From assembly GCA_051362555.1 (NCBI GenBank), contig CM120644.1, positions 22,156,534 through 22,220,533 on the forward strand: a stretch of DNA of 64,000 nt, read 5' to 3'. Shown here one piece after another: positions 2,420 through 51,864 of the stretch (positions within the stretch are counted from its first letter, which is position 1; each line of letters opens with the position of its first letter). A program made the translations under genes and the position numbers. Source of the DNA: Lingula anatina. Taxonomy: Eukaryota; Animalia; Brachiopoda. The notes beneath the pieces were generated by a model that made no database searches, was not told where the DNA came from, and saw only the letters and a list, made by a program, of their open reading frames with translations.

Positions 2420-2587
2420 CAGGCCCGTAGCCAGCAATTTCAAAAGGGGGGTTCTTTTTCTGAAAAAGTGGACCTTTTTCCATAAAAACTTCATGTACCT
2501 AGATCAAATTTTACCCAGAGTGTACCTTTTCCCAGCAAAAGGGGCAGTTCTTTCGAACCCCCCGAACCCCCCCTGGCTACGGGCCTG
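2420..2587. mobile_element. MITE with 15-bp TIRs (CAGGCCCGTAGCCAG), copy 1, in a FAM221A intron
   Basis: Terminal inverted repeats caggcccgtagccag / ctggctacgggcctg; a second copy in opposite orientation lies at 11081-11253. Confidence 0.8.
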
Positions 2588-2750
2588 TGACAACAGTGTG
2601 TGTATGGGAACTGTATAACAGCTGAGAAATGACTTTGTTTGGAAATATCTGCCATTTTCCCTTCATCAATGTCACAATTCAAAACTATTGAGGATATTTT
2701 GAACTGATAGCTTTTTAGCACTTAATTTCATCTTTACAGGAGTTGCTTAA

Positions 2751-22329: not shown

Positions 22330-25300
22330 GACAACTCCCAGTTCTGGAGGCAGAGACACTCGGCTGCTAGAACTGATGTCCTGTCCTAGATGTAAACATT
22401 GGGATGTACGTGTATTGTATTACAACAGCAATACAAGGAGAGAGACAGTCTCTGCCCCCGCAGTCTTTTAGCCAATAGAGACAATTCAGTTTTTGCTCCT
22501 GCTGTAGATCTACCATTTGAACACCACCAAAATTGATTTTATTGTAAAGGATGGTAGTTTACCCACTTTATTAAACACATTATCAAAGTATTGTCACATT
22601 TGAGGAAATATTGACCTTATTTTATTTATTTTTTTCTCTTGTAAATTTATTTACAGGAGTGCTAAGTTCATTTATTTAGACTGGTCAACAAGATCACAGA
22701 TTGAAGAAGTGACATTGGCGAGCAGTTTCTCTGTATATTACCCCATCATTATATTATGTTTGTGTATAGCCTGTCAGTACCTCTATTGTAACATAGTGTA
22801 CATGTTTTGATATTGTATATTCATCTTTTGGTTCATATATTAGTAATTCATTAATCTTGCATCATCAGTATATTGTGTATATAAGATAAGTCATATCACC
22901 CATCCATCCCAGATTTTACTAGTGAATTAAAACATATATTTATATTATAACATCAAAACAACTGTACAGCCTTTGAGATGTTTACAGACTTTTTGCCTCT
23001 ATTGTATTGCCAATTTAGATTTCAGTTTAATTGCTTGTGGCTGGCAAAGATGTAAGGATATGAAAACATGAATGATCAATGTATATGAGACTATTTGCCA
23101 CAATTTTCTCAGTGTGTACTGGACAACTTATTGACTTACACAGTGAATGTGAACCAAACAACTAAGATGAAATATATGGGAGTCCTCCATGTATATAAAC
23201 GAAGTCTTCAGTCCATCGTTGACACATATTCACGACATGTTTTCAATCAGACTTATAAAGCAGACAGACTCTTTGAGTTTCTGGAAATTAACCTCCCAAA
23301 CCAGCATACCCACCCAGAAATGGGCTGCTAACCCCTGAAACTTATGACAATTCAAAAAAGCAGCCTGGGTTTACATAAGTCTCTGTCAATAATTAATGTG
23401 TTGATATTAATCTGTTTGTAAACATATGTCTGCAAAAATAATCCCAAAATATGGTGCTTTTGTTGCCATGTTGTAAACTGTCTTTGTATTGCACCTTTTA
23501 TTATTATTATTAAATTAAATCTATAAGATGCTCAGATGTTCTTTTCAGAGACCACATTTAGGTGGTAAGTTAATTTAATAGCATTAATAATTCCAGCAGT
23601 GTTCCAAACGCCGTCTACAATATTGACATGTACATAAGCTTTCTGCTATCATTGTAGAAGTCATTATTTTTGCCTTCCCCCCCCAAATCCCTACTGATAG
23701 AGGGGTTGACAAATTGATTAGAATGATTAAAGTTGGTGTCAGAGTTAGTGACTAAGGTTTTATTATCCGATTGTGGAAATTTATCGTCACAGTTATGGAT
23801 ATTTTATGGATAAATAACCAAAATTAAAAAGTGTATTACTTTGTAAGTAAACCAGTCAGAAAATTTGAGTTTTAACCATTTTAAAGACGTAAGGTATAAT
23901 TCTGTGTCAAATATGGTAAGATTAAGATGTTAAACCATTTATTCTTTGAAAAACTTCACTTGACCTGTTCATCTTAATAACCTTTATTCTATCCCTCTGT
24001 GTAGTAGAAATGCAGATCTATTTTGGAATAAATTTTATAAACAAAGGTAATGTTTTTTGTTAGTCATTTAGAAAAGGATAAACTTTACATTTATTTTAAA
24101 TTTGAAGAAACATTAACAAATCCAACTTTCTTTCAAAGTTCCATAGGCGTTGTGTCCCAAAAATAAATACAACGAAAAGCAAAATCTTCAATTATAAGAA
24201 ATGTGTCTACCATGCCATGTGTCACCCTTGCAAGGATTTAAAAAAATCTAATATAAGTCCATGTATATTAGCATAAGCCATACATAGGCTCTTAACTCAT
24301 TTCTACCCAGGAGCAGTCATAGTCCTAGATTTGGATGTATAGCTAGGTCATTGGGTGTCGACTTTATATACTTTTTGGACGTTCATCCAATGCATTCAGA
24401 TATTTTTTTAATGTAATAAAGTTGTACACATTTTCCAAACTCAGAAACTGATTTCATCTTACTCATAAAAATGAGCAGGTGTCCTTTATTTCAACATTAG
24501 CCAAATAAATAAATTAACAAATATGAATAAAATATATTTTAAACGGTGACTACATTTGCAAACATTTCATTAACATTAGAAACACTTCAGAGGTCCACTT
24601 ACCAAGCTGACTTTCAAGCGAGTTTCACTCCAAGATCCCCGACTTAAATGCCATGGAAAACGTGCTTGAGATGGTGAAGTAAACCATATTCTCTGAATTC
24701 AATTGCATCAGCAGTACTCGTCACCGCTATCGCAATCCGCACGTTGCTGAAATGCATTGTGTCTACCATTAACGATGACAAGTCCAAAACGGACAATGTA
24801 GATAATTCCATTTTCAAATTTCTAGTTTTATTAATGTGAAATGTGCAAACCCATTGTCAAACGCTATCCTACTAGAATTTGCTGTCAAATTCCTTGTACC
24901 ACAACAGAACCAAAGAGTTCAGATCACAAATATAATCCCTAAACTTGTAAATTAATTTTAAGGAGTGTTTTAAGCATTCGTCTCGTTTTATGACTTTATG
25001 GCCTCACATGTTATTATATATCGCAACTTGAACCGTGAAATTTGAGTAATTGAGATTTGTATGCACTGCGCAATAGTGCAACACAGGATCCACCTAAGAT
25101 TAAAAATTGGGATATAAGGCTTCGTTCACATGCAATGTCTATTTTCTAATTTCTAATTTCTATTTGCGCTATCTTATGATCACGGTCTGTGTACTGAATA
25201 TCCCGCCGCGTAATTACTGGCAGCGCTAGCCAGTTCCTTATATAGTAACTTATAGTAACTGGCTCGCGCTGCCAGTAATTACGCCGCGGGATATTCAGGC

Positions 25301-25452
25301 CACAGACCGTGATCATAAGACATACCGCAAATAGAAAATAGAATTTAGAAAATAGACATTGCATGTGAACGAAGCCTAAGTCTTCTGAATAAGAATCTAG
25401 AGAGCAAACCTTTAGAAAGGCCACTTGGGAGAGCTAACAACTCGGACGCCAG
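22330..25452 (+). repeat. Segmental duplication block, copy 1 (CREB 3' UTR and downstream flank)
   Basis: Colinear similarity to about 45300-51820 and 60001-64000, e.g. the shared strings cacccatccatcccagattttactagtgaatt and gtgtagtagaaatgcagatctattttggaataaatttt. Confidence 0.9.
25118..25376. mobile_element. Palindromic Tourist/PIF-Harbinger-like MITE, TAA TSD
   Basis: taa|ggcttcgttcacatgc ... gcatgtgaacgaagcc|taa; the empty site is visible in the paralogous block near 63921-63940. Confidence 0.88.
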
Positions 25453-30977: not shown

Positions 30978-31610
30978 TGTAAGAACATTGTTGATTTTTC
31001 TCTTCAGTGTAGACACTCAAGAAAGAATTTAAGTGTATATAAATAATACAAAATTTATACTATACATTCTTATAAAAGAAAACTAGTAGCAAAAAAGTAA
31101 AGTCGAAAGATATAATAACATTTTATCAGACAAGGCTTGTTGATATTTTATACATACACTGTAAAACAGCGTTTAGCTCCTAAACAAATTTCTAAGCCAC
31201 TGCTTTGTCTCATTTTTTTCCATTGGTTCAGCTCCTAAGCATGTTACACGCGTTAAGCCTGAATATGTTTGGCAATATGGTAAAATTAATACCGCTACGT
31301 GTCTGCTGGACTGCAGTCTATCCAGCAAACACATAACGTATTTATAACGTAACCATAACGATAATTTTACCAAGAAGCGCTACGACCACGTTATGGTAAC
31401 GTTATAAACGTTCTCTGTTTACCGGGAGGGATAAAATTTCTGGTCTGGCAGAGAAATATATTTTAGTTTGCTACCTTTCACCACCTCATACGGCATACTG
31501 GGCTACATGTATGTCCCCCAAGAAACCCATAGCGCCAACACCCAGTTTGTATCAGGGCCCGTAAACTGCACTGAGACGCATCAGAAGTGTGGTATATAAC
31601 AAGTGAACTT

Positions 31611-32420
31611 TCTTTTTTTAATTTTTTTAAATTTTTTTCATGAACTTTAGAAATGTAAATTACAGTTTACAATACTTCTTTGTTACCCCTCGCTTACTTC
31701 TTTCTCTCTCACACACACATACATACACACATAACTAGTACTGATAAGCACATTTTTTCTAACACAGATAGCATTCAATGTCCCTGGTGGACAGATGTCC
31801 CCCTTTTTTGATTTACTGTAAATGTAATATTTTACCTGGGAAATTAATAAATTCAATTTCTCATCATTGTTTCCAAGAATAATATCCGATGCAGAAATGT
31901 GAATATTGGCTCCCTTTTCTTCCCTAAACCAGTTTTCGATTTGCTTCCACAAGTTTTTTTGCGAGATCACAATCTACGAAATGTTTAATAATTTCCATCC
32001 TTGTGCTACATAAATTGCAATGAGGATTATTAACTATTTTATATTTGAACAATAAGTATTTTGTCCCTAGAATTCTACGAATACATCTAAAATTAAACCA
32101 TCTGAGTTTGGATTCTTTTGTCAGGAGACAATTGTAGCTAAGATTCCATGTTATTGCATTATTAAAGAACCTTTCTCATTTAATTTAATTTTTTTTGTGG
32201 TTTCGTACAGTTTTTTTATAAACGTATCATAAATCGATTTACAGCCTTTTTTGTTTTTCCATATAATCATAAGCGGTTTGGGTATTTTCAGGTTATAAGT
32301 TTTCTGTGTAACAGTTATTTCTTTTAAATTGGGCAATGCATTATAGATAGCATTTCTTAGGCCAAAATATTTTGTAAATGGGAGGCGTATTTTGTATGCA
32401 TCCGTGATTTCTCTATTTTT
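31611..32420 (-). mobile_element. Degenerate 3' fragment of an L1/Tx1-like LINE (zf-RVT region)
   Basis: Minus-strand remnants such as KWFNFRCIRRILGTKYLLFKYKIVNNPHCNLC and LWKQIENWF...DIILG...KYYIY; T-rich tail at 31611-31640; frameshifted. Confidence 0.65.
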
Positions 32421-32522
32421 TTTATTTATTACATGTATATTGTATTACTGATATGTTTTGGCCTGTTTCAATAAATTTCACATCTCCCCGAAATGCTTCA
32501 TATTGCCAAACGTATACTTATC

Positions 32523-32590
32523 GGATGGCCTAGTGGTTAGAATGTTGGTCTACTAAGCCAAAGAACATTGGTTTGACTCCGTTTGTGGAC
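32523..32590 (+). mobile_element. tRNA-derived SINE head or tRNA pseudogene
   Basis: A-box TGGCCTAGTGG and B-box-like GGTTTGACTCC at tRNA spacing, but the cloverleaf stems do not pair well. Confidence 0.5.
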
Positions 32591-32824
32591 ATAATAAAAC
32601 AAAACACACATCCCAGAGAAGAGAGGGAGAGCGTGGTGTACTATGGCATTTTCTCACAGAAACCATCACTAATTTCTCTTCACAGTATAAAAGTCTTGTA
32701 ACTAGGACAACTTGTTTCAGCATATTTATCCATTTTATGTAACTTTTCTCCTAGACCAGCACGTGTTGCTGTAAATAATTGCATTGATGACCAATGCACG
32801 TTTTGTACAAGGACCTGTTATTAA

Positions 32825-35800
32825 TAGACTAGTAAACTGAGCTAAAAAAATGGCCTAACCCAGGACTAATTTTAAAAAAATTGTAATGATGTTTTTTAGA
32901 AAGCTAAATATCGAAATTTTAACATATTAAAAATCTAGAAAAATCTAAGTAGTGGAAAAAGGTTTTTAAGGCAGTTTTCCAAGATGGCCGCCAATATATT
33001 AAGTCTCTATAGGTAAAGGGGGTCTTAAAATTTTGGGAGTATTTTTGCTAGAATAAATGGGGTTAAGACCTTGAAATATATCCAGACTTAGAGACAAAGA
33101 CCTATTTGTTGAAAAGAAAATTTTGGTGTTTATAACAATTATTCCATCACTCAATGTTAAATATAATCATTATATCATTCACAACGACTCTGTGAGGTTT
33201 GGCTGCAAATATGGCTCTTTAGGAGAAATCTTAGAGTCTTAGTGTGAAAAATCTGACCAATAAGGTTTCTGAATAAGTGGACAGGATAGGACTTCTTTTC
33301 ATTCTGGGGACAAATATTTCTTTGCTAATATCATAAATATATGATATATGGAAAACACTTTTTTTTGTATTATTTATTATACCCATCTATGTACCTGTTC
33401 AAAGCATTTTCCAATATGGCTATCAGCAAGATTATTCATAAGGCTTTATAAATTAAAAAAAGACAAACAGTGTCTTCAGTAAATATTCCACTCAAGAATG
33501 TGTCCTTACCCCCTTTTCTTAATTATATTGATGAATAAGTAATGGAGGTAAAAAGTTGTACAGTCATCAGTGGCACCAAACACAATGTCAGTCTTTTTTC
33601 TAAGACAGACTGAAATGTTGCATTAATTGGACAAGCAATCATATAATCAGCCAGGCCAAATGTATTGCTGGCCTGTCCAAATAGGTTTGGGTGTCCAACT
33701 GCATAAACATTTTGGAAACAGATTCCTAATTGCATGGATTCTGTGGCTCCTACTCCTAATAGTAAGATATGAGAGGGACTCCAGAGCCACACAAGGGACA
33801 GAATCCTAGAGTATTTGTTGCTACATTTACCAACATGGAAAACCCCAATATCTAGGAATCAGATCCTGTCAGAAAACCAACTTTTTGTGGAAACTGTCCT
33901 TGCCTGCTTTCCAGCCACAGCCCAAACAACTATGGAATGGTTACATGGGCAAATGGTGACTAGAGGGAATCACCCAGCAAAAGCATCTGTTATGTCTCTT
34001 TCTCTGGTAGATATGGATCTACAGAAAGAACTGTCATGCATCTACTCCACTTAATTTAATTTATTTACGTGTTCAACAGTTCAGAGCAACCCCCAATAAT
34101 TACCTTTGATCAACCACTCTGGTGGAAGGACCAGACTACTGTTGAAAGTGAACCAGAATCCAATATACTGCCATCTACAGTTGCAAGGCTTGGTGGCTTC
34201 CACACAGAGATGAGCTACCTTTGGTGCATATGTCAGCTCATGACAGGGTCAGAACTTTGAGAACTTCTTGAAACTATATTTGTTGTCAATACAGTAAGCC
34301 ACATGATTCCCAGGGAATGCTCTGGCTAGGGCAATGAGGGCCCAGCTGTGTACTTGATCTAACCCTCATGGCACTTCTCATCTTCAAGCTTTTGCAGGAT
34401 AATGTGCCAGCCACTGGTACTCAACAACATGAAGCACATCACAGTGAAACACACTGCACAGATGTCATTGCAGGTACATGCATGCATTGTCTGGGTGATT
34501 TCCAATTGATGGAGACAGAGCAGACATCCAGATCTCCATGACCCGGACCATGGTAACATTAGATGTGGCAGAGAGTGACAAAGATAGACCAGCAACTGGC
34601 TGTTGAGAAAGCCACTTCGAAAAGTCAAAGAATTGCAAGGCTCAGGGTACAATGTATGGACATTTCCTCTTTGCTAGAGCAGGCAATATAGTCAGATGGG
34701 TTTGAAAGTGAAGGTGAGGTCCAGTACATTTTAGATGGTGTGGCACTCCTTCATCACACACATTGGACTGTTGGAATGTCTTGCACACTAGGGAGATATA
34801 GGAGAGCTATAGTGTAGCATTATAAAGGGATCATCTTGGATGTCCCCTCTACTGAGCTATGGTTCTGCACACCTAGTAAGATCCAATTAACAGTATGAGC
34901 ACAGCTATTGTCTTCACAGATGAGACGAAGCTGCAGAGTAGAAAAGAAAAAGATTCTTATCAACAAAGAAAACAAAAAGGTTCATTTATTTGCTTGGAGA
35001 GAAGTTGGAAGGTGTTGGAGTTGAAGTAATCCAAGTTCCAGGTGATGCAGACCTCCATATTTCATTTAAATAAAGAAGTTTATCTGAAGCACACATCACA
35101 TGATCATAATCTTCTGAGCCTTGTCCCGAAGCCATAATTGCTCGCAACGTCATTTTCTTGTGTTTGAAGTGAAACTTAGGTCATCCCTGGTGAAGGCAGT
35201 TAGGTTCTAATTGACTAGTCAGTTATTTATAACTAAGATTCAGATGGAATAAGACATTGAATTAAGTGAAGGGACAGGTTTAGAATACATTTTAAGTAGG
35301 AAATAATGTCATTTACCTCAGGCAAGTTTATTTTGGTGCATGAATTGGATAAAGAGCACCTTTAAAATCATTTTATTTAAGTGATTATGTCCAGGCCAAT
35401 CTAATACTACAACAGAAAGTGGTAAAGGACCATAAATGTACTTTTGAGCTTATTTTTTATTCAATTTTTTACTTCAAATTTGGTAATTTGTAGCTGCCAT
35501 TTTAGTTTTGGCAGCCATTTTGTATATTGTTGAGGCTATCTGCCTTTGATTTATTTGGAGAGAAGAGGCACAACATCCCTTTATGCATTTTGTACCATTT
35601 TAACAAGCTTTTGTTGAAACCACCTGGAGCAAATTTGCACCTATGTACTGACTGTAGATCTCTGTGCTGGCAGCCATTTTGGATTTTCCCCAAAAAATAC
35701 CTATTCCACTACTTGAATTTTTCTAGATTTTTAATAAGATCATATGGACCACTCAAAGACTCAAAAAAAAAAAAAAAAAAAAAAAAAACATACTACAATT

Positions 35801-35845
35801 TTTTTGCAATTAGTCCTGGGTTAAACCATTTTTTTTCTTAGACTA
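32825..35845 (+). mobile_element. Decayed Academ-superfamily DNA transposon (TAG...CTA ends, TAA TSD, long TIRs)
   Basis: taa|tagact... and ...agacta|taa; long imperfect TIRs containing aacccaggactaatt; broken transposase-like peptides ITFDQPLWWK, RLGGFHTEMSYL, HKHFGNRFLI and YILDGVALLH. Confidence 0.78.
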
Positions 35846-36710
35846 TAATAGTAACAAAAAATGCTGAAAGCAAAATACTGTTACAGTAACAAGAAATATT
35901 TGTAAAAGCACTTTAAATAGATGTTTGGAATGTTTTCATTAACCATAAAATAAACAGGTATAAATTGTCCCAAGATAATGATAACGTAAAATTTAAAAAC
36001 TTGGATGACAATATAGTGTACATAGTAACAGTTATGGCCAATAATAGGTATGACATAATAATCATATGAAGTACTTTTTAGGTGACTTGGCTATTTGTGC
36101 CACACCACAAGTATTTAACATATTACTCCTTTTTACACCACAGGACATGCTTCAATAAAAAAATCATGTATGTAATATTTATGCTGAAAGAAGTGTCTCT
36201 GATTCATTAGACGGCATACAACAGGTAAATCTGGCTGCCCCCCCCCCCACATATAACTCATTAAAAATACCAAGTAACGATGCCTTAAACCAAATAATAT
36301 TTTTTTCACGCAACAAATATATGCATAAACTTTATAATAGCAAATTATTAAAAAAAATGACGATGGGCACTTTGCAAATAGTTACCAGCACTCATCTTTT
36401 ATGAATAAAACATGTCTATGGTAATATGCTATAGATCAAGAAGTTAAGGGGCTGTATGAGACACATTTATGTTGAAGTCAAATGAGAGCGGAATATATAC
36501 TATATTAACTGTGTGGCCAAACTGGTGCTCTCCAAGAAAAACAATTTTAATTAAATTTTTTTAAATAGAATTTAAATTAGAAAAAAAAATAGAATTAAAC
36601 ATTTGAAAGTTTCTAACATCATAATCCTCGTGTTGATCTTCTATAAAAAATTAAAAAAATCAATCAAATCAACTATGCTTGGGTACTTTTTACCAATCAT
36701 AGACGCCATT

Positions 36711-36846
36711 TCCCTGGGAGTTCACGCTAAATAGCTGTCAGCCGAGCGGACACGAAAGTTAATTACCCCCTTACAGCTTGTAGTAGGCGGGACGGACATT
36801 TAAGCCGGATTATCTGACAGTAATCTATTTAGACTCCCCGAGGGGA
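36711..36846. mobile_element. Small degenerate palindromic MITE upstream of the Roco gene
   Basis: ccctgggag..ctaaatag..ctgtcag mirrored by ctgacag..ctatttag..actccccgaggg; partial relative at about 62546-62600. Confidence 0.5.
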
Positions 36847-37232
36847 AAGATCGATCTAAAAGCTCTGGGAATACAGCCATAGTTGATCTTAAGAGATATG
36901 TTTTCATCCTAAAATGGACAGACCCACGACTAGTCATTTCAGCTCGAAATCCTGAACGTGTGAGGGTTTATGCATATCTCTAATTATGTACATTTCAATC
37001 CCCATAGAACAAATTAAATTCCGAACTGCATTTTGTGTCTGTAATGTTTACTTTATGTGGCATGAACGGGTATAATTTGTATGAAAACAGCACTGTCGAT
37101 CACAAGCTATTGGTCAAGATATATCTGATGTATTGGCGTTGTGAATATGAGGCATACATTGACTAAGATAAAGTCTCTCTTACCTTCTATTACATTTCAG
37201 TAGAGACGAGAGATGAAGTAGTGGCGGTAACC

Positions 37233-38091
37233 ATGGCAACAGCAATAACACAGCCCGACTCTGAACAGGAAGACAATTTTTTTCGCATGACCATTCTAAT
37301 TGTCGATTATGGTTTGAAGGTCTTGCGAGATGTTCTTCGGGAAGAGCTAACAAAAGCGTATTCCAATTTATTTGACCCCCAGTCTGGGTTGTTAAGTGAT
37401 GTGCTTGGTGATGGAACTGTCAGGAAAAAACTGTTTAAACTGTCACCTAGGGTATTTAATGTACATCAACAAAACCAGCTGTATCCTGGTGGAAACCCCT
37501 CCAAAGAAGAGACTGTTGGTAATTTAGACATCACACTGACTGTGCTTTTACTGAGAAATATCACAACATTGACTGCACATCCAGGGTCAAATGCATGGGA
37601 TGACCCCTTAGACATAGACACATCAACAGTAGCCAAGATTGGGCGAGTTAAAAGATACCGAAATGTTGTGTATGCACATGCAAAAAAGTCAGCAATTAGC
37701 GATCAAGAATTCAGTGCACATTTCTCAGGGCTCAAGTCCAACCTCCTGTCTCTCTCTAGTACGTACACAAGTGAGGACTATGATGAAATCTTGACTAGAC
37801 CCCTTGATGCTACTTTACTGAAGGAAAAACGAGACATTCTGATAAAATGGTATGATTATGACAACGATGTGAAAGAGCAGATGAGGTCTCTGGAAAAAAA
37901 CGTTCTTGGGGAGATAAAAAATGGCACACAGCATACACATAATAAACTTGATGAAATCTCGGAAGGAATCACACAGGTGACCCACCAAGTCAGACAGCTA
38001 CAGATGTGCGTGGAAGAGGTCAAAGGTGCACAGAATCGAGATTCACAAAGATGGTCTCTAGATCAGCAAGCTCAGCTGACCAAAGGTACAG
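37233..38091 (+). CDS. Roco protein coding exon 1: DZIP3/hRUL138-type HEPN domain plus coiled coil
   Basis: Acceptor ending 37200, Kozak ACCATGG at 37233; LDITLTVLLLRNIT...WDDP...RVKRYRNVVYAH (Rx5H HEPN motif); phase-1 donor gtatgt at 38092. Join 37233-38091, 39207-39455, 40076-43384, 43660-44000 = 4758 nt, 1585 aa. Confidence 0.8.
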
Positions 38092-39206
38092 GTATGTATT
38101 TTATGCATTTAGATATTTTTTTCTTAAGAGCAGTAAATATTGGGGCCATCATTAATGAAGTACATAATATAAAACTATCATTTCAGGATATGTCGATTGT
38201 GTTCAATTTTGCTCTTAGTTAGAATGAACTGAAATAGTCTTCAGTGACAGATATGTGTACGTGAAGGTCTGATGGCTATTACAAGAAAACTTCCGTTTTC
38301 TTTAATGTTGTATTGAAAGGAAATGTTTAAAACCTAAAAACGTTCACATTATTAACCAATTTAATTTTGCGAGTTACATGTATGAAGGGAACTAGCTGCC
38401 AATGAGAGTTCAGTAAAGTCACGTTTCCCACGCCCTTGAAGCATCTTAAGAGTGTAATAAAACCTAAGTAAAATTATCAAGCAAATGAAATGTAATAGAA
38501 AATGTTCACGGTCTTTTAAAGAGAAAAAATGAAAATTTGCATGGAAAAAACTTCATGTACCACTTATTAAATACGTGTACAGTTTAGTTTCACATAAAAG
38601 AGTTATTTTAAGGGCTATTTTAAGCATTTTTACTACTCTAAACAAGAAATGACAATTATAATATATACTCCATAAGCAGTTATATATATTTCTTTCCACA
38701 AAGCTTTGAAAAAAAACTTCTTCATATGAAAGACTTCCATCACAAACATTCCAACTTTGTTATTAATGAAACAATTCTTTCATATACTGTAGTCGCAATT
38801 CTATTTCGTGTTTCTATTTATTGCCATGGTGGATCACGTTTTACTTTCAGATGCAACTAATATTTTGAAATTTTTGTTGAGTGTACTAATATTAGTTGGA
38901 AAGGAGGAAATTGTCAGAAACAATGCTTATGTACAACAATCTCCCATCATACCATCAGAGATAAATTAAATTTCCACACATATTTAGACATTTGTGTATT
39001 TTGTTTACAGAAATTCAAGAAACTGAACATCGTTTTCTTGTGCAGCTTTCGTGGAAGGAACTCCGCGGATTCAGCTGGCAAAATACTCCATTATATTAGT
39101 TCTGAATCGACCTTCTAGCTGCGTGATGTGAGAGTTAAACGACATTTCTCGTGCTTCATATTACGGCCTATATGTCTAGATTTTTTTTCTTTATTCTGAA
39201 TTCCAG

Positions 39207-39455
39207 ACTCAGTGAACAGTGAAGTTTCGGTCATGGTCACTGGCAGTGGGAGTAACAGAGATCAGAGCGCTGTTACACCGTCTCATATGGATGTACAATC
39301 AAGCAAGGACCTTACTCAGACCCTGATCTTGAAAGCCTCTGATGAACCATCATGTGTCTCAACTTCACCTCATCCAGATGTCACCACCCCCCTGTGTGAA
39401 GCCAGAGACATACACGACGTGAACACCAGTGAAACTATAATGTCAGGGGCAACAG
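39207..39455 (+). CDS. Roco protein exon 2: S/T/P-rich linker
   Basis: Poly-pyrimidine tract plus ttccag acceptor, open frame, phase 1-1, gtaatc donor at 39456. Confidence 0.65.
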
Positions 39456-40075
39456 GTAATCATCCAAAAATATCCGTTCGAGGAACTACATGTACCCGTA
39501 ACTGACACTTTATTTGATTGATATTTCTGTTTGAAAACTTGTAATTGTGATTGTGATTATGATTGTAATTATTGTAATTATGTTTTATAAGTTACCTATG
39601 TACTCAGAAAAATTCAGCCTGATCTTTGTCTAAAGTTTTAAAGTTCTGTGGAATTTATTTTACTTTTATAGGTGTCGAGTAGTCAAAAACGGTACAAGCA
39701 CATTGTATGATGTGTTTTATTCTTTTGATGATCAACAATTAGCTAAGTAAGGATAATAGAAACCATTTGAAAAAAAGTATTATTAAGACGATAAATGATA
39801 AATAAAATGATAAATATATAATATATAAATATATAATAGGGACAAGGGGTAATATTTCTCTTTTCGCTTAAACCACACTGAGAAGAATTCACAAAAAAAA
39901 AAAAGGAACTGACTTTCATGTAGTTTTATGGCAGGTTTGTCAAATATTAATTAGAAAGCTGTTGGGATGAATTAATTTAGATTTTTGAAAGAGTCAGGAT
40001 AGGACTGCCATCCCGCTTTCCTATATCCGATAACCAAATTATATAATATAAGAACTTCAAATATATCCCTTTCAG

Positions 40076-43000
40076 TTATGCAAAGCGCACATGACTATCC
40101 GTGCATAAAAGAGGACACAATGGCTGAAGAAGTTATAGGAGGCGTGGAGGTGTTAGACCTTCTAAAAGATTTGGAGAAAAGACCAGCAGACGACCAGACA
40201 CCAATACCAGACATGATCACCCAGTGTACTGTGCTGGAGCTAACATGTAAGAACATTGAACACATCCCTGACACCATATGTAGATGTATCAATGTGAAGA
40301 AGATCAATCTTGCAGGGAACAAACTTTCGTCACTTCCTCGGTCGTTGCACAAGTTAAAAAATCTCACAAATCTTAACCTTAGTTGGAATATGTTATCAGA
40401 GCTCCCAGCCTCGGTGTCTGCCTTACAACATATAGAGGGCCTAAACCTACAGGCTAACAAGCTATCCAGCCTCCCTTCTGATGTCAGTAACATGACCACA
40501 CTGAAGAGTTTAAACCTCGGGTGGAATCAATTCACAGAGCTCCCAGCCTCAGTGTGTGAGCTACCACATATAGAGAACCTGGACTTAAGCCATAACGAGC
40601 TATCCAGTCTCCAACCTGATATTGGTAATTTGACCACACTGAAGACTTTAAACCTCGGGTGGAATCAGTTCATGGAGCTGCCGGACTCAGTGTGTGCTCT
40701 ACCACATATAGAGAATCTGGACCTTAGCCATAACAAACTATTCCGTCTCCCTCCTGATGTCAGTAACATGGCCACACTGAAACATTTAAACCTCAGAAGA
40801 AATCAGTTCACAGATTTTCCAGCCTCATTGTGTGCTCTACCTCATGTACAGAACCTGGACCTAGAGGTTAACAAGCTATCAAGTCTCCCTCCTGAGGTCA
40901 GTAACATGACCACATTGAAGAGTTTAAACCTAGGGTGGAATCAATTCACAGAGCTCCCAACCTCAATGTGTTCTCTACCACATATAGAGAACCTGCAACT
41001 ACAGCATAACAACCTATCCAGTCTCCCTCCTGATTTTAGTGAGATGACCACACTGAAGAGTTTAAACCTAGGGTGGAATCAATTTACAGAGCTCCCAGCC
41101 TCAGTGTGTGCTCTACCAAATATAGAGAACCTGCAACTACAGTGGAACAAGCTTTCCAGTCTCCCTCCTAATGTCAGTAAGATGACAATACTGAAGAGTT
41201 TAAACCTCAGAAGGAATCAGTTGACAGAGCTCCCAGCCTCATTGTGTGTTCTACCACATATAGAGAACCTAAATCTACAGCATAACATGCTATCCAGTCT
41301 CCCTCCTGGTGTCAGTAAGATGACCACACTGATGAGTTTGAATCTCGGGTGGAATCAGTTCACAGAGCTCCCAGCCTCAGTGTGTGCTCTACCACATATA
41401 GAAAACCTGGACCTACAGCATAACAGGCTATCCACACTTTCTTGTGATGTCAGAAGAATACTCTCACTGAAGAGTGTGAATATTTCCAGTAATAATATCA
41501 CACATTTACCCCACCAGCTTGCCTCGCTGACACTCCATGCTCTGAACGTGGGCGATAATCCTATTCAGCAACCACCCATGTCAGTATGTGAGGCAGGACA
41601 AGAGGCAATATTCAGACACTTAGTAGAACTAAGAGAATCAAAAGCAGTCAAGTCTTGTAGAGTGCAAGTAAACCTCCTGGGAGAAACAAAAAGTGGGAAA
41701 ACCAGTTTAGCACGCTCCCTCAGACGTGGGATACCGATACTCACTGATGAAGCAGATAGAACTAGAGTGGTGGAGCAATCACTGTGGGAAATTGAAAGGG
41801 ACATAAGTTTTAACATCAATGACTTTGGGGGTCATGACGTGTACAGAGTTGGACACCGTATTTTCATCTCACATAACAGTATAGTTCTTGTCACCTTTGA
41901 CCTGTCGACCTATGACCCCCGCAGCACATCACATTTCAAAGAACATATCGGAATCTGGATAGATATGGTGCAGTCCCATAATCCAGGGGTGACAATTGCG
42001 TTGGTTGGTACACATCTCGATAAAACTAATGCAGCAACCAGCAGGGCTGTGTGTGCATCTATTCAACAAGCAATTGCTGATAAAATAAGAAACAGAAAAG
42101 AGTGGTATAATGAGAAAACAAGAAATCAAAAAGTAATAACACAATCCTTACAGAGAGCCGAAGACAGAGGTCTGATTTCAGCATACAGGAATAAGCAAGA
42201 ATCACTGGACGAAATAAGAAGATGTGAGGAATCCAAAATTCATCCTGACATTTTTTTAGTGAGTTCAAAGAATAATGCAGGTTTAGAGAAACTCAAAGGT
42301 TATCTTGCTACCCTAGCGACGAAAAGAAACGTTACCTTACCACAGACCTGGCATGAGGCAGCAAAGAGCATCTGCTCAAGAAAGGAGGATCAAACTAAAA
42401 ACACACTTAGTTGGAATACTGTGAAGCTAGATGTTGAAAGATGTGGACAGCAAAAGCATCACCAAATCACTTATGACAATGTAGATAATATTCTTGCTTT
42501 TCTTGCAAGCAGAGGTGACATCATCTGGTATCCAAACAGTCCAATCCTTAGAAACACCATCTTCCACAGACAGGAAGTTTTAGTTAATCTCTTAAAGGGA
42601 GTGCTCAACCGCAACAATGATGGTTTTCAGTTTTTAACACAAATCATTGTCAGTGAGGCCAAGAAAAAGATAATTAGAGACGAATTCCGCAAGAGGGGAG
42701 TTTTCTCTGTGCAGGTGATTGGCGCCCTTTGGAAACCATTTGGTGTGACAGCCAGGGAAGCCAGTGCAATGGTGGAGCTCATGCAGAGGCTGGAGTTATG
42801 CTTCATGGTGAACAAAGGCAAAGATGGCGCCACATTTCACTTTCCATGGCTACTTAAACAAAGCCGCCCATCAAAAATCAAGTCCAAATGGCCACAATCC
42901 GTACCAAAGGACATTACACAGCTTACCCTGAAAGTGTATTTCCCATACCGCTGTCCTGATGGTCTCTATGAGAAATTGTCTGTGCGCCTTCATTCAACCC

Positions 43001-43384
43001 TTGGACTCTATCAGCCTATGAGGAGAGACTGGAGAGATGGGGTATTTGTGGACATGGCATCACACTGCATGCAAATGACCAGAAGCCAGACGGACAGAGA
43101 CTGGGTGATCACCATTGCTGTCAGAGGTCAACATCTCCCAGACCTGTGGAAAACACTACTCCAAAACCATGATCACCTTATGAACATCATGGAGGAAGAT
43201 TGGCCTGGCTTACCATGTGACAAGTACCTGGTGTGTCCTCATTGTACAAGTCTAGACGCAGAGACTCCAACCGAGTTTCCAGCTGAAATGATTGGCCAGC
43301 CCCCTGACATGAAGGTTACCAGCGTACCATGTTGGGAAACTGGGGAAATGATATCGGCAAACTTAATATATCCTTATATGCCAG
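40076..43384 (+). CDS. Roco protein exon 3: ~20 LRRs, Roc GTPase and COR (MFHAS1-like)
   Basis: 23-aa LRRs; P-loop GETKSGKTS at 41680, G3 DFGG, G4 THLD, G5 VSS; COR-like region with FPWLL and a C-terminal CPHC; donor gtaaaa at 43385. Confidence 0.93.
40360..41470 (+). repeat. 138-bp coding tandem repeat (paired 23-aa LRRs, ~8 units)
   Basis: Recurrent DNA aacctcgggtggaatcagttcacagagctcccagcctcagtgtgtgctctaccacatatagagaacctg at 138-nt period. Confidence 0.9.
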
Positions 43385-43659
43385 GTAAAACTATTTTAAT
43401 ATTAATTAATACATATGATGTCTGTTCTGAAATCATGCTGCTTCTACTACCATCCACATCTCCCAATGAAAATGTAGGAGTTGAATTAATTTTCGGGAAT
43501 CACTGTTTAAAATGATATTTCCATTTCGGATTGGTCAGAAATTCAAGATAGAAAATTGCTATTTGAAATGTGCTTTGTATTTTAAAAGTACATGCAAACA
43601 CAGCCAATCTGCACCCTGACTTGTTACTTTAAAATTTTAACTTTGTTTTGTATTAACAG

Positions 43660-44000
43660 GTTTCGCAGCCATGAAACCCCACCAGAAACGTGCTGTGTTT
43701 CAGAAAAAGGACCTCCTGGTCAGCGAAATAACCATGCCAAATCTGAGTTATCTGCTGGACAAGCTGATAGAGAAAGGAATCATCACTGACAGAGAGAAGG
43801 AGTATGTATGTTCAGTGCCAATTACTGGGGACACAGAGGAGGCTGAAGGGGCAGCAGTAGCAGCTAGTGTGGTGTCTCCTGGACGGACAAGAACACTGCT
43901 CGACATACTGCTCACCAAAGAAGAGAGGGCATTCGAATATCTGTGTGAATTCCTGGTGGAGAATGGGCAGGGCTTTCTAGAAGAACAGCTGAAAAGGTAA
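43660..44000 (+). CDS. Roco protein terminal exon: CARD (death-fold) domain
   Basis: taacag acceptor in phase 1; LVSEIT...LLDKLIEKGIITDREKEYV...RTRTLLDILLTKEERAFEYLCEFLVENGQGFLEEQL fits the CARD helix pattern; TAA ends at 44000; AATAAA at 44088. Confidence 0.82.
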
Positions 44001-44523
44001 TGAGCTCTTACTCGGCTGCTAAGTGAAAAAAAAAGTTATATATATTTAAATGAACGTCGCGGTTTATGCATTAAGGTTTTCCAATCTAATAAAATGTTTT
44101 ACTCTTATAAAGCATTTACAGCTTTGAAGGATAACATATTTCGGTTCAAAATTTTTGTAATATTCGTACAGAAAAGAACCAAATGCTGCTATAAAACGCC
44201 GTTGTCCGGCTAGAATTATTTAAATTTCTAATAGCAGCTCCTGGTTTCTCCCAGGTCGGAAGACGCCTGTCTACATTCAGCTACTACCATTCACTTCTCA
44301 TGGTAAAATGCGGATGTTAAATTAACCAGGTATCAAATTTGAAAATTGCATCTCTCTTTTGGGATGAGTAGTAAATTGTGGTATTTGAATGAGACTGTTG
44401 CTATTGTGTATTTGAAAAAGCATTTTAAAAGAATCTTTAAAGAATACATCAAAACCTTCAGCAGCTGCTTTGATCCACACACACACAGCTAGTCTATACC
44501 TAACAATAACTTGTTATTCACTT

Positions 44524-44784
44524 CAAAAGCGTGACCTGAAACAGCACATAGAGCTCTGCTGGACGAGCTGAGATATCATCACTGACAGAGAGAAGGAGTA
44601 TGTGCGTACTCTGTCGTCTAGTGAAGACACAGATGAGGTTGAGGGGGCAGCAGCAACCACCAGTGTGGTGTCTCCTGAGCAGACAAGAACATTGCTTACC
44701 AAAGAAGACAGGACATTACAGTGTCTATGTAAATGTCTGTAGAAGAATGGGCAGGGCTCTCTAGCAGAAAAGCTGAAAAGATAA
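44524..44784 (+). pseudogene. Decayed tandem copy of the CARD exon
   Basis: Shares atcatcactgacagagagaaggagtatgt, agtgtggtgtctcctg and gaatgggcagggct with 43660-44000, but has deletions and a TAG near 44739. Confidence 0.82.
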
Positions 44785-46386
44785 TGAATTGTCACTTGGC
44801 TGTTATTATTTGTATTTCTTGTAACTCAAGAATCATGCTTTGAGATCCTTAGATGTTGCAAAATTTTGCTCCTTAAAGGCTCTTTACTTCTGAAGCTGAA
44901 GTTAGTGAACCTTTTGTATATTTAAAAGTCTTAACCTACCGATATTGCCATGCTTTGCATTGAGAAGACGGAAAAACAACAACAACGCTGTTGTAAAACG
45001 AAATGACAACCAGTATTTTTTAAAAATTCCAGACATTGGTGTGATATTGTTTACGTTTTCAAGATTCTGATTCCCGTTGCTCAGTCTGAGGAAGGCTGCC
45101 CCGGCTGTCTGCGAACTTCACTCCACTGAGTTGACAATGCTGATGACATTGACTAACACGTCAGATATATCCATTACATGGATGATGATATACTGATGGT
45201 ATGATATGACAATGACATACTTTGTATATGTAATATGCTTCTAATCTGTCTTATTCTAAATGATCTTGGATCCTAGATATAATCAACTGATGACAATTGG
45301 ACAATTTTCCGTTCTGGAGGCAGAGACACACAGCTGATGTTCTGTGCTAGATACATTTGGATGTACCTATACATGTATTACAAAGAGTTATACATGAATA
45401 TCTACCTTTTCTGCATTTGAGCTATAAACACCAACAAAACGGATTGTTTAAAGGATGGTGGTCCACCCATTTTATTAAACACATTATCAAAGTTTTTTCA
45501 CATTTGAGGGATCATTGATGTTACTTTTTTCTCGAGTGAATGCATTTTCAGGAGTGCTAAGTTCATTTTTTAGACTTGCAAACAAAATCACACATTAGTT
45601 AGCACTTCATCTGTATATTACCCCATGCTTATACTATGTTTGTATCAGTACCTTTATTGTAACATAGTGTGCAAGTTTTGATATTGTATATTCATCTCTT
45701 GGTTCATATATTATCAATTAATTAATCTTGCATCATCAGTATATTGTGTATATAAGGTAAGTCATATCACCCATCCATCCCAGATTTTACTAGTGAATTC
45801 AACAAGATATTTACATTATAACATCAAAACAACTGTACAGGCTTTGAGATGTTTACAGACTTTTTGCCTCTGCTATATTGCCAATTTAGATTTCAGTTTA
45901 ATTGCTTGTGGCTGGCAAAGATTTAAGGATATGGAAACATAAATGATCAATGTATATGCAACCATTTTGCCACAACTTTCTCAGTTTGTACTAGACAACT
46001 TCTTGACTTACGCCGTGAATGTGAACCAAAAACCTAAGGTGAAATATATGGAGAGATATCATAGGAAGTCCTCCATGTACATAAACGAAGTCTTCAGTCC
46101 TTCGTCAACACATATTTACGACATATTTTCAATCAGACTTATATGGCAGACGGATTCTTGGAGTTTCTGGGAATTAACCTCCTAAACCAGCATACCCACC
46201 CAGAAATGGGTTGCTAACCCCTAAAACTTATGACAGTTCAAAAAAGCAGCCTGGGTTCACATAAGTCTCTGTCAGTAATTTAATGTGTTGATATTAATCT
46301 GTTTGTAAACATATGTCTGCAAAAATAATCCCAAAATATGGTGCTTTTTGTTGCCATGTTGTAAACTGTCTTTGTATTGCACCTTT

Positions 46387-49106: not shown

Positions 49107-51727
49107 CCCCCCCCCCCCCTCCGAATAATTCCTTATTACTGATGGAGGGGTTGGCAAATTGAATTAAAAGTCAGTGTCAGAGTTAATGACTAAGGTTTTA
49201 TTATCCAATTGTGCAAATATGTCATCACAGTTGTGGATGTTTTATTTTAACCAAAACTTAAAAGTGTATTACTTTGTAAGTAAACAAGTCAGACAATTTG
49301 AGTTTTTACCATTTTAAAGACGTAAGGGTAAAATTTTGTGTCAAATATGCTAAGATTAAGATGTTAAACCATTTATTCTTTGAAAGACTTCACTTGACCT
49401 GTTCATCTTAATAACCTTTATTCTATCCATCTGTGTAGTAGAAATGCAGATCTATTTTGGAATAAATTTTATAAGCAAAGGTAATGTTTTTTGTTAGTCA
49501 TTTAGAAAAGGATAAAGTTTACATTTATTTCAAATTTGAAGAAACATTTACCAATCCAACTTTTTTTCAAAGTTCCATAGACGTTGTGTCTCAAAAATAA
49601 ATACAACGAAAAGCAAAATCTTCAATTATAAGAAATGTGTCCACCATGCCGCGTGTAACCCTTGTAAGGATTGAAAAAAAATCTAAGTCAGTATTTATTA
49701 GCATAAGCGATGCATAGGCCTTGGTTCTTGTCTCACTTCTATCCAGGAGCAGTCACAATCTACCCTAGGTTCTAGATTCCGGTATTTCCAGCTCGATCTT
49801 GATTTCATATATAACCCATATCAGCAATACCTAGTAAAAATGACTCCAAGGTATATATTTAATATTTACAAGCTAATTTTTACGTTGCCCTAACACTCAG
49901 GGTATCATAATCCCACATTTGGATGTATATAGCTAGGTCATTGGGTGTCGACTTTATATACTTTTTCATTCAATGCATTCACACATTTTTTAAATAATAT
50001 AAAATGAATATTAAATGAACAGGTATCTTTTGTTTCAACATCAGCAAAAAACTTACATGTATAGTTTTGAATAAAAGGTGTTTAAACGATGACTGTATTT
50101 ACAAACATTTTATTAAAGATAACATTAGAAACACTTAAGATGTCCACCTACCAAGCTGACTTTCAAAACCGATCCGCTCCCCCCCCCACCCCCTCCAAAT
50201 TGACGTGGGGTTCGGGACCTGCTGCTGGACCCCGAAAATTTTTGTTATTTAAGGGGGCGAACGGTGCCATTTGGTATGGTTTAAAACTATGATTCAGCTA
50301 GTCAAAATTCTAATTACAAGAGGGGACCAGAAATGGAAAAAAATCTTATTACATGAGGGGGGCCAGAAATCTAAATCCGCCACTGCCCTGAGATTCCCGA
50401 CATAAATGCCACGGAGGCCCCCCCCCCCCTCCGAATAATTCCTTATTACTGATGGAGGGGTTGGCAAATTGAATTAAAAGTCAGTGTCAGAGTTAATGAC
50501 TAAGGTTTTATTATCCAATTGTGCAAATATGTCATCACAGTTGTGGATGTTTTATTTTAACCAAAACTTAAAAGTGTATTACTTTGTAAGTAAACAAGTC
50601 AGACAATTTGAGTTTTTACCATTTTAAAGACGTAAGGGTAAAATTTTGTGTCAAATATGCTAAGATTAAGATGTTAAACCATTTATTCTTTGAAAGACTT
50701 CACTTGACCTGTTCATCTTAATAACCTTTATTCTATCCATCTGTGTAGTAGAAATGCAGATCTATTTTGGAATAAATTTTATAAGCAAAGGTAATGTTTT
50801 TTGTTAGTCATTTAGAAAAGGATAAAGTTTACATTTATTTCAAATTTGAAGAAACATTTACCAATCCAACTTTTTTTCAAAGTTCCATAGACGTTGTGTC
50901 TCAAAAATAAATACAACGAAAAGCAAAATCTTCAATTATAAGAAATGTGTCCACCATGCCGCGTGTAACCCTTGTAAGGATTGAAAAAAAATCTAAGTCA
51001 GTATTTATTAGCATAAGCGATGCATAGGCCTTGGTTCTTGTCTCACTTCTATCCAGGAGCAGTCACAATCTACCCTAGGTTCTAGATTCCGGTATTTCCA
51101 GCTCGATCTTGATTTCATATATAACCCATATCAGCAATACCTAGTAAAAATGACTCCAAGGTATATATTTAATATTTACAAGCTAATTTTTACGTTGCCC
51201 TAACACTCAGGGTATCATAATCCCACATTTGGATGTATATAGCTAGGTCATTGGGTGTCGACTTTATATACTTTTTCATTCAATGCATTCACACATTTTT
51301 TAAATAATATAAAATGAATATTAAATGAACAGGTATCTTTTGTTTCAACATCAGCAAAAAACTTACATGTATAGTTTTGAATAAAAGGTGTTTAAACGAT
51401 GACTGTATTTACAAACATTTTATTAAAGATAACATTAGAAACACTTAAGATGTCCACCTACCAAGCTGACTTTCAAAACCGATCCGCTCCCCCCCCCACC
51501 CCCTCCAAATTGACGTGGGGTTCGGGACCTGCTGCTGGACCCCGAAAATTTTTGTTATTTAAGGGGGCGAACGGTGCCATTTGGTATGGTTTAAAACTAT
51601 GATTCAGCTAGTCAAAATTCTAATTACAAGAGGGGACCAGAAATGGAAAAAAATCTTATTACATGAGGGGGGCCAGAAATCTAAATCCGCCACTGCCCTG
51701 AGATTCCCGACATAAATGCCACGGAGG
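49107..51727 (+). repeat. Apparently identical 1310-bp direct tandem duplication
   Basis: Lines match at offset 1310; ORFs at 50089 and 51399 are identical; the junction is in a poly-C run at about 50418. Confidence 0.92.
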
Positions 51728-51864
51728 CAGCATGAGATGATAAAGTACACCGTCTTCTGATTTCAATTGCATCAGCAGTACTTGGCACCGCTATCGCAAT
51801 CCTTATGTTACTGAAATGCGCAGCGAACACAATGGTCAATCTACTGTAAACTATCCACCAATTA

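What the first reader, a model, noticed from the sequence alone, without database searches (positions are those of the whole stretch)
37233..44000. HEPN, coiled-coil, LRR, Roc, COR, CARD protein: a Roco GTPase with a putative RNase at one end and a death-fold at the other
Seen: four phase-compatible exons give a 1585-aa ORF. It has a DZIP3-type HEPN domain with an intact Rx5H motif (RNVVYAH), a heptad-rich coiled coil, about 20 LRRs, complete Roc G-motifs (GETKSGKTS, DFGG, THLD), a COR region and a C-terminal CARD. Established: HEPN RNases (RNase L/Ire1 KEN, Cas13, toxins) form their active site on dimerisation; Roc-COR modules dimerise in a nucleotide-regulated way; DZIP3-type HEPN domains occur N-terminal to NACHT or ankyrin domains in invertebrate immune proteins; CARDs recruit caspases and adaptors; MFHAS1 acts in innate signalling. 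Inference: an NLR-analogous sensor in which LRR ligand binding drives Roc-COR dimerisation, switching on RNA cleavage and caspase recruitment together. I do not know of this full architecture being characterised, and the exon linkage is predicted, not observed.
Basis: partly seen in the sequence, partly recalled or inferred. Interest (0 to 1): 0.88.

Follow-up and report, generated by a model that had tools for sequence, protein, structure and literature searches.

The report
RNase-tipped Roco GTPase of lamp shells
Four open reading segments, likely from a lamp shell (Lingula), are predicted to splice into one protein that joins a likely RNA-cutting HEPN domain, variable leucine-rich repeats, an LRRK2-type GTP-switch domain and a cell-death adaptor domain; a 72%-identical relative with the same layout already sits in RefSeq under an automatic name, and the protein likely acts as a self-contained immune sensor, though no activity has been tested.

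Summary
Observation confirmed. Four GT-AG, phase-1 exons give 1585 aa with HEPN_DZIP3 (RNVVYAH), a long helix, 19 regular LRRs, Roc, COR-A/B and CARD, each above Pfam's cut-off. Linkage rests on homology, not RNA: Lingula anatina RefSeq XP_013379136.1 (1430 aa, auto-named MFHAS1) has the same architecture, is 72% identical and is colinear across all three junctions. The gene likely arose when a HEPN-helix-linker cassette, also found on Lingula helicases and a GTPase (its HEPN also on NACHT proteins), joined one subclade of a large LRR-Roc-COR-CARD expansion. The HEPN is predicted to homodimerise through its catalytic motif (0.63 against best control 0.01). Precedents: HEPN-Roc-COR(-Death) in anemone and bivalves, bacterial LRR-Roc-COR-HEPN in a published catalogue, Roco-CARD in Trichoplax. 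No paper on the full architecture turned up in 10 searches. This scan earlier noted Roc-COR-CARD proteins without HEPN or LRR in other genomes. Verdict: new variant of a known kind; likely immune sensor-effector.

The parts
37233..38091 (+). Coding exon 1: HEPN_DZIP3 domain plus long helix (aa 1-286)
   Evidence: 76% identical to XP_013379136.1 in both parts
37659..37679 (+). HEPN Rx5H motif RNVVYAH (R143, N144, H149)
   Evidence: Rx4-6H present in 48 of 54 HEPN domains aligned; residues 147-153 lie at the predicted dimer two-fold
37809..38084 (+). Continuous helix aa 193-284, likely coiled coil
   Evidence: AlphaFold2 helix, block pLDDT 81-93 over most of it; best heptad register 0.48 vs 0.28 hydrophobic
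39207..39455 (+). Exon 2: Ser/Thr/Pro-rich linker that travels with the HEPN cassette
   Evidence: no Pfam hit; 39-46% identical to the linker behind HEPN in P0033/P0034/P0035 (E 1e-12 to 5e-15 in a small local set) and 66% to P0007
40076..43384 (+). Exon 3: LRR array, Roc, COR-A, COR-B and C-terminal Cys motif
40120..40122 (+). Internal ATG (Met385, MAEEV) at the position where HEPN-less paralogue models start; possible ancestral or alternative start
40294..41601 (+). 19 canonical 23-aa LRRs, mostly a tandem 138-bp (two-repeat) unit, 7.8 copies, 81% matches
41668..42021 (+). Roc GTPase domain with G1 GETKSGKTS, G3 DFGG, G4 GTHLD
   Evidence: 84% identical to XP_013379136.1
42340..43359 (+). 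COR-A and COR-B
   Evidence: Roc-COR model matches LRRK1 8e05 (E 2e-22) and C. tepidum RocCOR 3dpu (E 5e-18)
43660..44000 (+). Exon 4: CARD, split by an Ala/Glu-rich insert; stop TAA 43998-44000
   Evidence: junction matched by P0005 and P0192
44088..44093 (+). AATAAA, candidate polyadenylation signal
   Evidence: only such hexamer in 44001-45400
44524..44805 (+). Decayed tandem copy of the CARD exon, with stops
   Evidence: 74% DNA identity to 43751-44021; translation

Best explanation
This is a predicted four-exon gene, likely of a Lingula-type brachiopod, whose product likely works as a cytosolic immune sensor-effector: variable LRRs would detect a foreign or damage signal, the Roc-COR GTP switch would gate self-association, and self-association would pair two HEPN domains into an RNA-cutting site while the CARD would recruit death or inflammatory partners. 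Shown here: open exons, domains, intact motifs, and a colinear RefSeq paralogue. Inferred from trees and homology: a HEPN-helix-linker cassette joined, through a phase-1 intron upstream of the old start codon, one subclade of an expanded LRR-Roc-COR-CARD family. Predicted: HEPN homodimer. Inferred only: the cassette is a proximity-triggered plug-in. It hangs on a long helix and a low-complexity linker, and in Lingula related HEPNs sit on helicases, an immunity-type GTPase and NACHT proteins, classes I recall as nucleotide-dependent oligomerisers. Ligand, RNA target, CARD partner and the 'on' nucleotide state are unknown.
For: Same architecture in XP_013379136.1 / A0A1S3H0X8, 72.1% identity over 1398 aligned residues and colinear at all three junctions. 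HEPN (76%) is kept about as well as COR (71%) and CARD (73%). The window and P0192 HEPNs are sisters (SH-aLRT 98), nested among the linker-bearing HEPNs of P0033/P0035/P0034. Their Roc-CORs fall in one six-member subclade (100/100) inside a family that mostly lacks HEPN. HEPN dimer: score 0.63, best of 3 controls 0.01, runs agree in at least 98% of contacts, pLDDT at least 90. The interface is symmetric and includes residues 147-153 (A148-A148', H149). That mark was reached by 21 of 30 solved homodimers and 0 of 23 single chains in microbes, and by 17 of 29 and 0 of 30 in eukaryotes. Canonical HEPN dimerisation makes a composite active site (PMC8266594, passage). LRR number differs among close paralogues (19, 15, 13, 11, 11, 4), and the two positions before the conserved Asn are the most variable (3.0/3.0 and 1.6/3.0 bits vs 1.3/0.9 on the convex side). 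LRR-AP-GTPase-COR proteins with variable effectors are proposed counter-invader systems in bacteria (PMC8195603 section 15).
Against: No spliced read was seen; depth on exon 1 was near zero in 2 of 4 runs, and reads in the other two carried fixed differences, so they come from another allele or paralogue. CtRoco monomerises on GTP, so dimer-equals-on is not given. Positive selection on the LRR face is not shown: concave pN is raised (0.29 vs 0.15, position permutation p 0.009), but concave pS is raised more (0.62 vs 0.17), and the repeats are not independent. The HEPN fold match is weak: Csm6 tops or ties the lists at Z 6.5-6.8, within the range of chance for helical bundles, and Foldseek gives nothing at E<=0.001. 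The dimer pass may come from memory of solved HEPN dimers; only 1 of 7 eukaryotic dimers without an older solved relative reached the mark. I found no paper showing RNase activity for a DZIP3-type HEPN. The CARD search returned only two Roco paralogues.
Confidence: 0.5

Rival explanations
1. Same parts, opposite or different switch. The empty or GDP-bound Roco dimer is the state that pairs the HEPNs, so the protein fires when GTP is lost or hydrolysed (a guard on GTP supply). Alternatively the helix keeps the HEPNs pre-paired in an inactive arrangement that a GTP-driven LRR swing releases.
For: CtRoco is dimeric when empty or GDP-bound and monomeric on GTP, with a large LRR-Roc hinge motion (abstracts). 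Loss of GTP binding raises MASL1/MFHAS1 toxicity in cells (PMC3995007 abstract). RnlA switches between alternative dimers (PMC8266594 passages). The HEPN is predicted to dimerise by itself.
Against: No test here of the Roc-COR oligomer (two copies exceed the tool's size limit). Variable LRRs point to ligand sensing rather than metabolite sensing.
Confidence: 0.22
2. The HEPN is not the output. It serves as an RNA-binding or dimerising module or decoy, and the protein signals only through its CARD like its HEPN-less paralogues.
For: 0 of 28 Roc-COR relatives listed carry PF18738, while 18 of 28 carry a CARD, so the family works without HEPN. 6 of 54 HEPN domains have lost the motif. Some HEPNs are non-catalytic RNA binders (PMC3710099 abstract passage).
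Against: R, N and H are intact in both full-length copies despite 24% HEPN divergence and sit at the predicted dimer axis.
Confidence: 0.14
3. A by-product of rapid domain shuffling: the fusion is tolerated but little used, and the main product starts at the internal MAEEV codon without HEPN.
For: The internal ATG at 40120 matches the start of paralogue models. Little RNA on exons 1-2 in four runs. Shuffling debris is visible: a decayed CARD copy at 44524-44805 and a second, degenerate HEPN-LRR-Roc juxtaposition P0057.
Against: The fusion is intact in two copies that differ at 28% of residues, with three in-frame junctions kept and HEPN conserved as well as COR. Immune genes may be silent in unchallenged tissue (general knowledge).
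Confidence: 0.1
4. Exon 1 (with or without exon 2) is a separate gene beside an LRR-Roc-COR-CARD gene.
For: No spliced read across 38091/39207. Short stand-alone HEPN models exist in L. anatina (P0066, P0067).
Against: XP_013379136.1 joins the same four segments. Exon 2 is tied to HEPN in three proteins and to exon 3 in P0007. The splice sites and phases fit.
Confidence: 0.04

Closest known systems
Lingula anatina XP_013379136.1 / UniProt A0A1S3H0X8 (auto-named MFHAS1), with partial near-copy XP_013405287.2
   Same: Same domain order HEPN-helix-linker-LRR-Roc-COR-CARD, 72% identity, colinear at all junctions
   Different: 11 LRRs instead of 19; only a database model, uncharacterised; not the sister of the window gene in the Roc-COR tree
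MFHAS1/MASL1 (group-1 Roco: LRR-Roc-COR, no kinase)
   Same: LRR-Roc-COR core without kinase (PMC6337361 passages); nearest Atlas clusters are MFHAS1 homologues, 0.92
   Different: MFHAS1 has no HEPN or CARD; here the gene belongs to a lineage-specific expansion (27 L. anatina hits of 28). Orthology not tested with vertebrate sequences
Bacterial LRR+AP-GTPase+COR+effector counter-invader systems (Kaur et al. 2021, PMC8195603)
   Same: Variable LRR, Roc-COR switch and interchangeable effector, including two LRR+AP-GTPase+COR+HEPN proteins of Thioflexothrix (supplement file 6)
   Different: There the HEPN is C-terminal and the only effector; here it is N-terminal, DZIP3-type, and paired with a CARD; likely convergent (inference)
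Invertebrate HEPN_DZIP3-Roc-COR proteins without LRR (Nematostella XP_048578792.1 HEPN-Roc-COR-Death; Pecten XP_033763247.1; Mytilus VDI67110.1; Lingula XP_013395173.1)
   Same: HEPN with Roc-COR in one chain; the Nematostella protein also ends in a death-fold domain
   Different: No LRR in 15 of 15 scanned with Pfam; their HEPNs fall in other branches of the tree
HEPN-NACHT-LRR NLR-like proteins of corals and pearl oyster (PMC9646362, PMC8260672)
   Same: N-terminal DZIP3-type HEPN with Rx4-6H on a nucleotide switch with LRRs; coral relatives carry RNTVYAH
   Different: The switch here is a Roc-COR GTPase, not NACHT; the LRRs precede the switch
Trichoplax Roco repertoire and brown-algal LRR-ROCO candidate receptors (PMC4104024, PMC11378527)
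   Same: Expanded Roco families with CARD/death domains or variable LRRs, proposed to be immune (passages)
   Different: No HEPN reported in the passages read; here the LRRs vary by tandem duplication inside one exon, not by exon shuffling

Membership tests
Roco GTPases | Roc domain followed directly by COR | tested here: met
   Pfam Roc, COR-A and COR-B above cut-off; model matches LRRK1, LRRK2 and CtRoco RocCOR at E down to 2e-22
Roco GTPases | Intact G1 (GxxxxGK[TS]), G3 (DxxG) and G4 motifs | tested here: met
   GETKSGKT, DFGGH, GTHLD; aligned to LRRK2 Roc
Roco GTPases | GTP binding, hydrolysis and nucleotide-dependent oligomer change | not testable with these tools
   needs biochemistry
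Group-1 Roco / MFHAS1-like | N-terminal LRRs before Roc-COR and no kinase domain | tested here: met
   extra HEPN and CARD make it a variant
Group-1 Roco / MFHAS1-like | Orthology to vertebrate MFHAS1 | tested here: inconclusive
   Atlas nearest clusters named MFHAS1 homologues; trees held no vertebrate MFHAS1 and the Haliotis homologue was a long branch
HEPN, DZIP3/hRUL138 family | Match to PF18738 | tested here: met
   E 3e-37, profile positions 3-141 of 144
HEPN RNases | Rx4-6H motif with a polar residue after R | tested here: met
   RNVVYAH; definition in PMC3710099 passage
HEPN RNases | HEPN helical fold | tested here: inconclusive
   Csm6 chains at Z 6.8 (rmsd 3.5, 117 aligned) and Z 6.5 (rmsd 4.0, 126 aligned), tied with unrelated helices
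HEPN RNases | Homodimer that brings the motifs together | tested here: met
   Prediction only: score 0.63 vs best control 0.01, interface includes 147-153 from both copies; may reflect memory of solved HEPN dimers
HEPN RNases | RNA cleavage | not testable with these tools
   needs assay
CARD | Match to PF00619 above the curated cut-off | tested here: met
   41.3 bits vs 23.9, in two stretches around an insert; weak PDB hits are all NOD1 CARD, E 0.2-0.6
CARD | Six-helix fold and homotypic partner | not tested
   no model made; partner search found only Roco paralogues
NLR | NACHT/STAND ATPase | tested here: not met
   no NACHT hit in any exon; it may work like an NLR but is not one

The most novel reading that the evidence does not exclude
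An animal receptor class in which a Roc-COR GTPase replaces the NACHT switch and drives two outputs at once, an RNase and a CARD. It is built from a plug-in, proximity-activated HEPN cassette that brachiopods have attached to several different oligomerising sensors. This would be an animal counterpart of bacterial LRR-Roco-HEPN defence proteins and a Roco with a built-in enzymatic read-out of its GTP cycle.
Probability: 0.35. Interest if true: 0.85.

Novelty: new variant of a known kind. Interest (0 to 1): 0.6.

Why it matters
Two open questions meet in one protein. First, which nucleotide and oligomer state of a Roco protein is 'on' is debated even for LRRK2's family; a Roco carrying a dimer-dependent RNase would report that state directly. 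Second, DZIP3-type HEPN domains are greatly expanded on invertebrate immune proteins, but I found no paper showing their activity. This cassette has an intact motif, a predicted dimer and several natural sensor partners to compare. If true, it would also give the long-proposed immune-receptor role of LRR-Roco expansions a concrete effector. The limits: it is a database-level architecture in one genus, its parts have precedents, and nothing has been assayed.

Tried and rejected
No whole genome is held, so copy number and synteny could not be examined. No RNA holder listed. Reads from 4 of the 9 listed runs (6-25% of each read) on 31000-39790 gave no splice joint at the exons and are inconclusive; junctions 2 and 3 have no read test. 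No extra exon for the roughly 100-aa segment that P0033-35 carry between helix and linker was found in intron 1 by tblastn; P0192 lacks it too. A sequence search of the PDB with exon 1 gave only coiled-coil-type hits, E>=0.047; Foldseek gave nothing at E<=0.001. Positive selection on the LRR face was tested and not shown. A CARD partner search returned 2 hits of 536 candidates, both Roco paralogues. P0057 (XP_013421888.1) was considered as a second full example and rejected: partial HEPN below the Pfam cut-off, motif lost, P-loop altered, other branches in both trees. Rfam: 0 matches in the window. No other immune gene was found among 88 other open frames scanned. Literature: 10 searches gave no paper on this architecture. 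The accession and 'HEPN+LRR', 'HEPN+AP-GTPase' and 'COR+CARD' were absent from the 13 Kaur 2021 supplements, but file 4 is cut in storage and spells the GTPase 'APGTPase', which I did not search with HEPN. Subscription papers, including a Lingula immune-gene survey that I recall (Gerdol et al. 2018, not seen), were not searchable. The scan's own index held nothing like exon 1.
Full report
Observation. All three introns are phase 1. Pfam finds HEPN_DZIP3 in exon 1 (E 3e-37), LRRs, Roc, COR-A and COR-B in exon 3, and CARD in exon 4, each above its curated cut-off; exon 2 has no match. There are 19 canonical LRRs, most from a 138-bp unit present 7.8 times at 81% match. An AlphaFold2 model of exon 1 (pLDDT 89.6) shows a helical domain followed by one helix at 193-284. 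The Roc-COR model matches LRRK1, LRRK2 and C. tepidum Roco.

Source and family. A search with the Roc-COR part gave 28 proteins: 27 from Lingula anatina and 1 from Haliotis, 18 with a CARD and 0 with PF18738. A search with exon 1 gave 22 proteins: 18 L. anatina, 3 corals and 1 unnamed. The window is therefore likely a Lingula-type brachiopod (inference). The best identities are about 70%, so this is a paralogue or another species' copy, not a listed protein.

Are the exons one gene? Reads did not settle it. Four of nine listed runs were laid on 31000-39790. No joint was listed at 38091/39207, exon 1 had depth of about 4-10 in X6 and about 6 in X7 with fixed letter differences, and it was near zero in X1 and X4. 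Homology does settle it to a good degree. Exon 2 resembles a linker that follows HEPN in P0033, P0034 and P0035 and precedes the LRRs in P0007. A cluster look-up then exposed P0192 = XP_013379136.1, a 1430-aa RefSeq model hidden behind P0007, with HEPN, LRR, Roc, COR-A, COR-B and CARD. It aligns to the window model at 72.1% over 1398 residues and runs through all three junctions; identity by part is HEPN 76, helix 76, exon 2 65, LRR 73, Roc 84, COR 71 and CARD 73%. This is an independent gene model, not a measured transcript.

Origin. In a quick tree of 54 HEPN domains, the window and P0192 are sisters (SH-aLRT 98), nested among the HEPNs of P0033, P0063, P0035 and P0034, next to those of the CARD-NACHT proteins P0036 and P0038. 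From their Pfam accessions (names recalled), these partners are a DEAD/DEAH-type helicase, a RIG-I-like helicase, an IIGP-type GTPase and NACHT proteins. Kaur et al. list an isoform of P0033 as HEPN+Ankyrin+TRADDN+SF2-helicase (supplement). In Roc-COR trees (41 rows quick; 19 chosen rows with bootstrap, long branches left out) the window, P0192, P0007, P0005, P0006 and P0008 form one clade (100/100). Models outside it start at a Met equivalent to the window's Met385. The simplest reading is that the HEPN-helix-linker cassette was spliced in upstream of the old start codon in this subclade. Whether P0005, P0006 and P0008 lack HEPN or are truncated models could not be checked. P0057 is a separate, degenerate HEPN-LRR-Roc juxtaposition.

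How common? A profile holding HEPN and Roc-COR was run over 1.84 billion representatives and the best 150 of 7690 hits were taken. Among all 197 proteins held, own profiles found HEPN+LRR+Roc in 2 (P0192, P0057) and HEPN+Roc without LRR in 20, isoforms included. Pfam confirmed no LRR in 15 of 15 of the latter that were scanned. Named examples are from Nematostella (HEPN-Roc-COR-Death), Pecten, Mytilus and Lingula. The sample is biased toward the query, and cluster members can hide, as P0192 did.

Mechanism. The HEPN motif is intact, as in 48 of 54 domains. Two copies of residues 8-202 were predicted to pair: score 0.63, best control 0.01, contacts at least 98% in agreement, pLDDT at least 90, with residues 147-153 on the two-fold. 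The mark was reached by 21 of 30 microbial and 17 of 29 eukaryotic solved homodimers and by 0 of 23 and 0 of 30 single chains; the pass may come from memory of solved HEPN dimers. This placement fits the composite site described for RnlA (PMC8266594 passage). The structural match to solved HEPNs is only suggestive: Csm6 at Z 6.5-6.8. LRR number varies from 4 to 19 in the subclade and the exposed positions before the Asn vary most. Amino-acid changes concentrate on the concave face (p 0.009), but synonymous changes do too, so positive selection is not shown. CtRoco is dimeric when empty or GDP-bound and monomeric on GTP (PMC5714945 and PMC11052575, abstracts), and MASL1 is more toxic when it loses GTP (PMC3995007 abstract). 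I commit to a sensor-effector in which Roc-COR-gated self-association pairs a loosely tethered HEPN and exposes the CARD (0.5); the reversed switch is the main rival (0.22).

Known systems. DZIP3-type HEPNs are known fused to TPR, ankyrin, CARD, NACHT, DEATH and LRR, with no Roc in that table row (PMC3710099, passages), and are expanded on NLR-like proteins of pearl oyster and corals (PMC9646362, PMC8260672 and bioRxiv 2022.05.17.492263, passages). Roco proteins with CARD or death domains are known from Trichoplax, and variable LRR-Rocos from brown algae (PMC4104024, PMC11378527, passages). Aplysia has TIR-bearing Rocos (PMC9334734, passages). Kaur et al. 2021 describe bacterial LRR-AP-GTPase-COR systems with at least 24 effector types (section 15), and their supplement lists two with HEPN. 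MFHAS1 is LRR-Roc-COR only (PMC6337361, passages). Ten searches found no description of the full architecture; subscription papers and the cut part of one supplement were not seen.

Verdict. The feature is real and the protein is a Roco GTPase and a DZIP3-type HEPN protein by the tests that could be run; it is not an NLR. It is a new variant of a known kind, present but unremarked in RefSeq. Interest 0.6: the parts have precedents, but the combination offers a direct test of both Roco switching and DZIP3-HEPN activity.

Noticed in passing
window 36711-36880: A 170-bp element about 350 bp upstream of the start codon draws hundreds to about 2000 RNA reads per site in all four runs, most running on into unlike sequence, so likely an abundant interspersed repeat. 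Single copy in the window, folds as a long hairpin (-48.5 kcal/mol, no shuffle control), no Rfam match.
   Followed up: partly
window 44524-44805: Decayed tandem duplicate of the CARD exon 500 bp downstream of the stop, 74% identical, with stop codons.
   Followed up: yes
window 1452-2615 (+): Two open frames match consecutive parts of Pfam FAM221 (E 2e-28, 8e-30): exons of an ordinary FAM221-like gene.
   Followed up: no
window 7331-8680 (-) and 31927-32175 (-): Retroelement remnants: a 449-aa reverse transcriptase frame and a weak zf-RVT match.
   Followed up: no
window 12087-13127 and 25117-25377: Long self-complementary (inverted-repeat) stretches, about 1 kb at 86% and 260 bp at 91%, likely foldback or MITE-type elements.
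   Followed up: no
window 49108-51728: A 1311-bp direct duplication at 100% identity (49108-50418 and 50418-51728): very recent duplication or assembly artefact.
   Followed up: no
P0033-P0038, P0040 (L. anatina proteins): One HEPN clade sits on helicases, an IIGP-type GTPase, CARD-NACHT and CARD proteins, and a sister clade on TPR and Roc-COR proteins: a mobile effector cassette worth study in itself.
   Followed up: partly
P0069, P0070, P0079, P0092: Other LRR-Roc-COR proteins with C-terminal enzymes: GT4 glycosyltransferase (P0069 from Branchiostoma belcheri, P0092), trypsin-like peptidase (P0070), caspase (P0079), echoing the bacterial effector set of Kaur 2021.
   Followed up: no
window about 43220-43380: A CxxC...C motif after COR-B recurs in many Lingula paralogues, possibly a zinc site; I recall a similar tail in MFHAS1 but did not test it.
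   Followed up: partly
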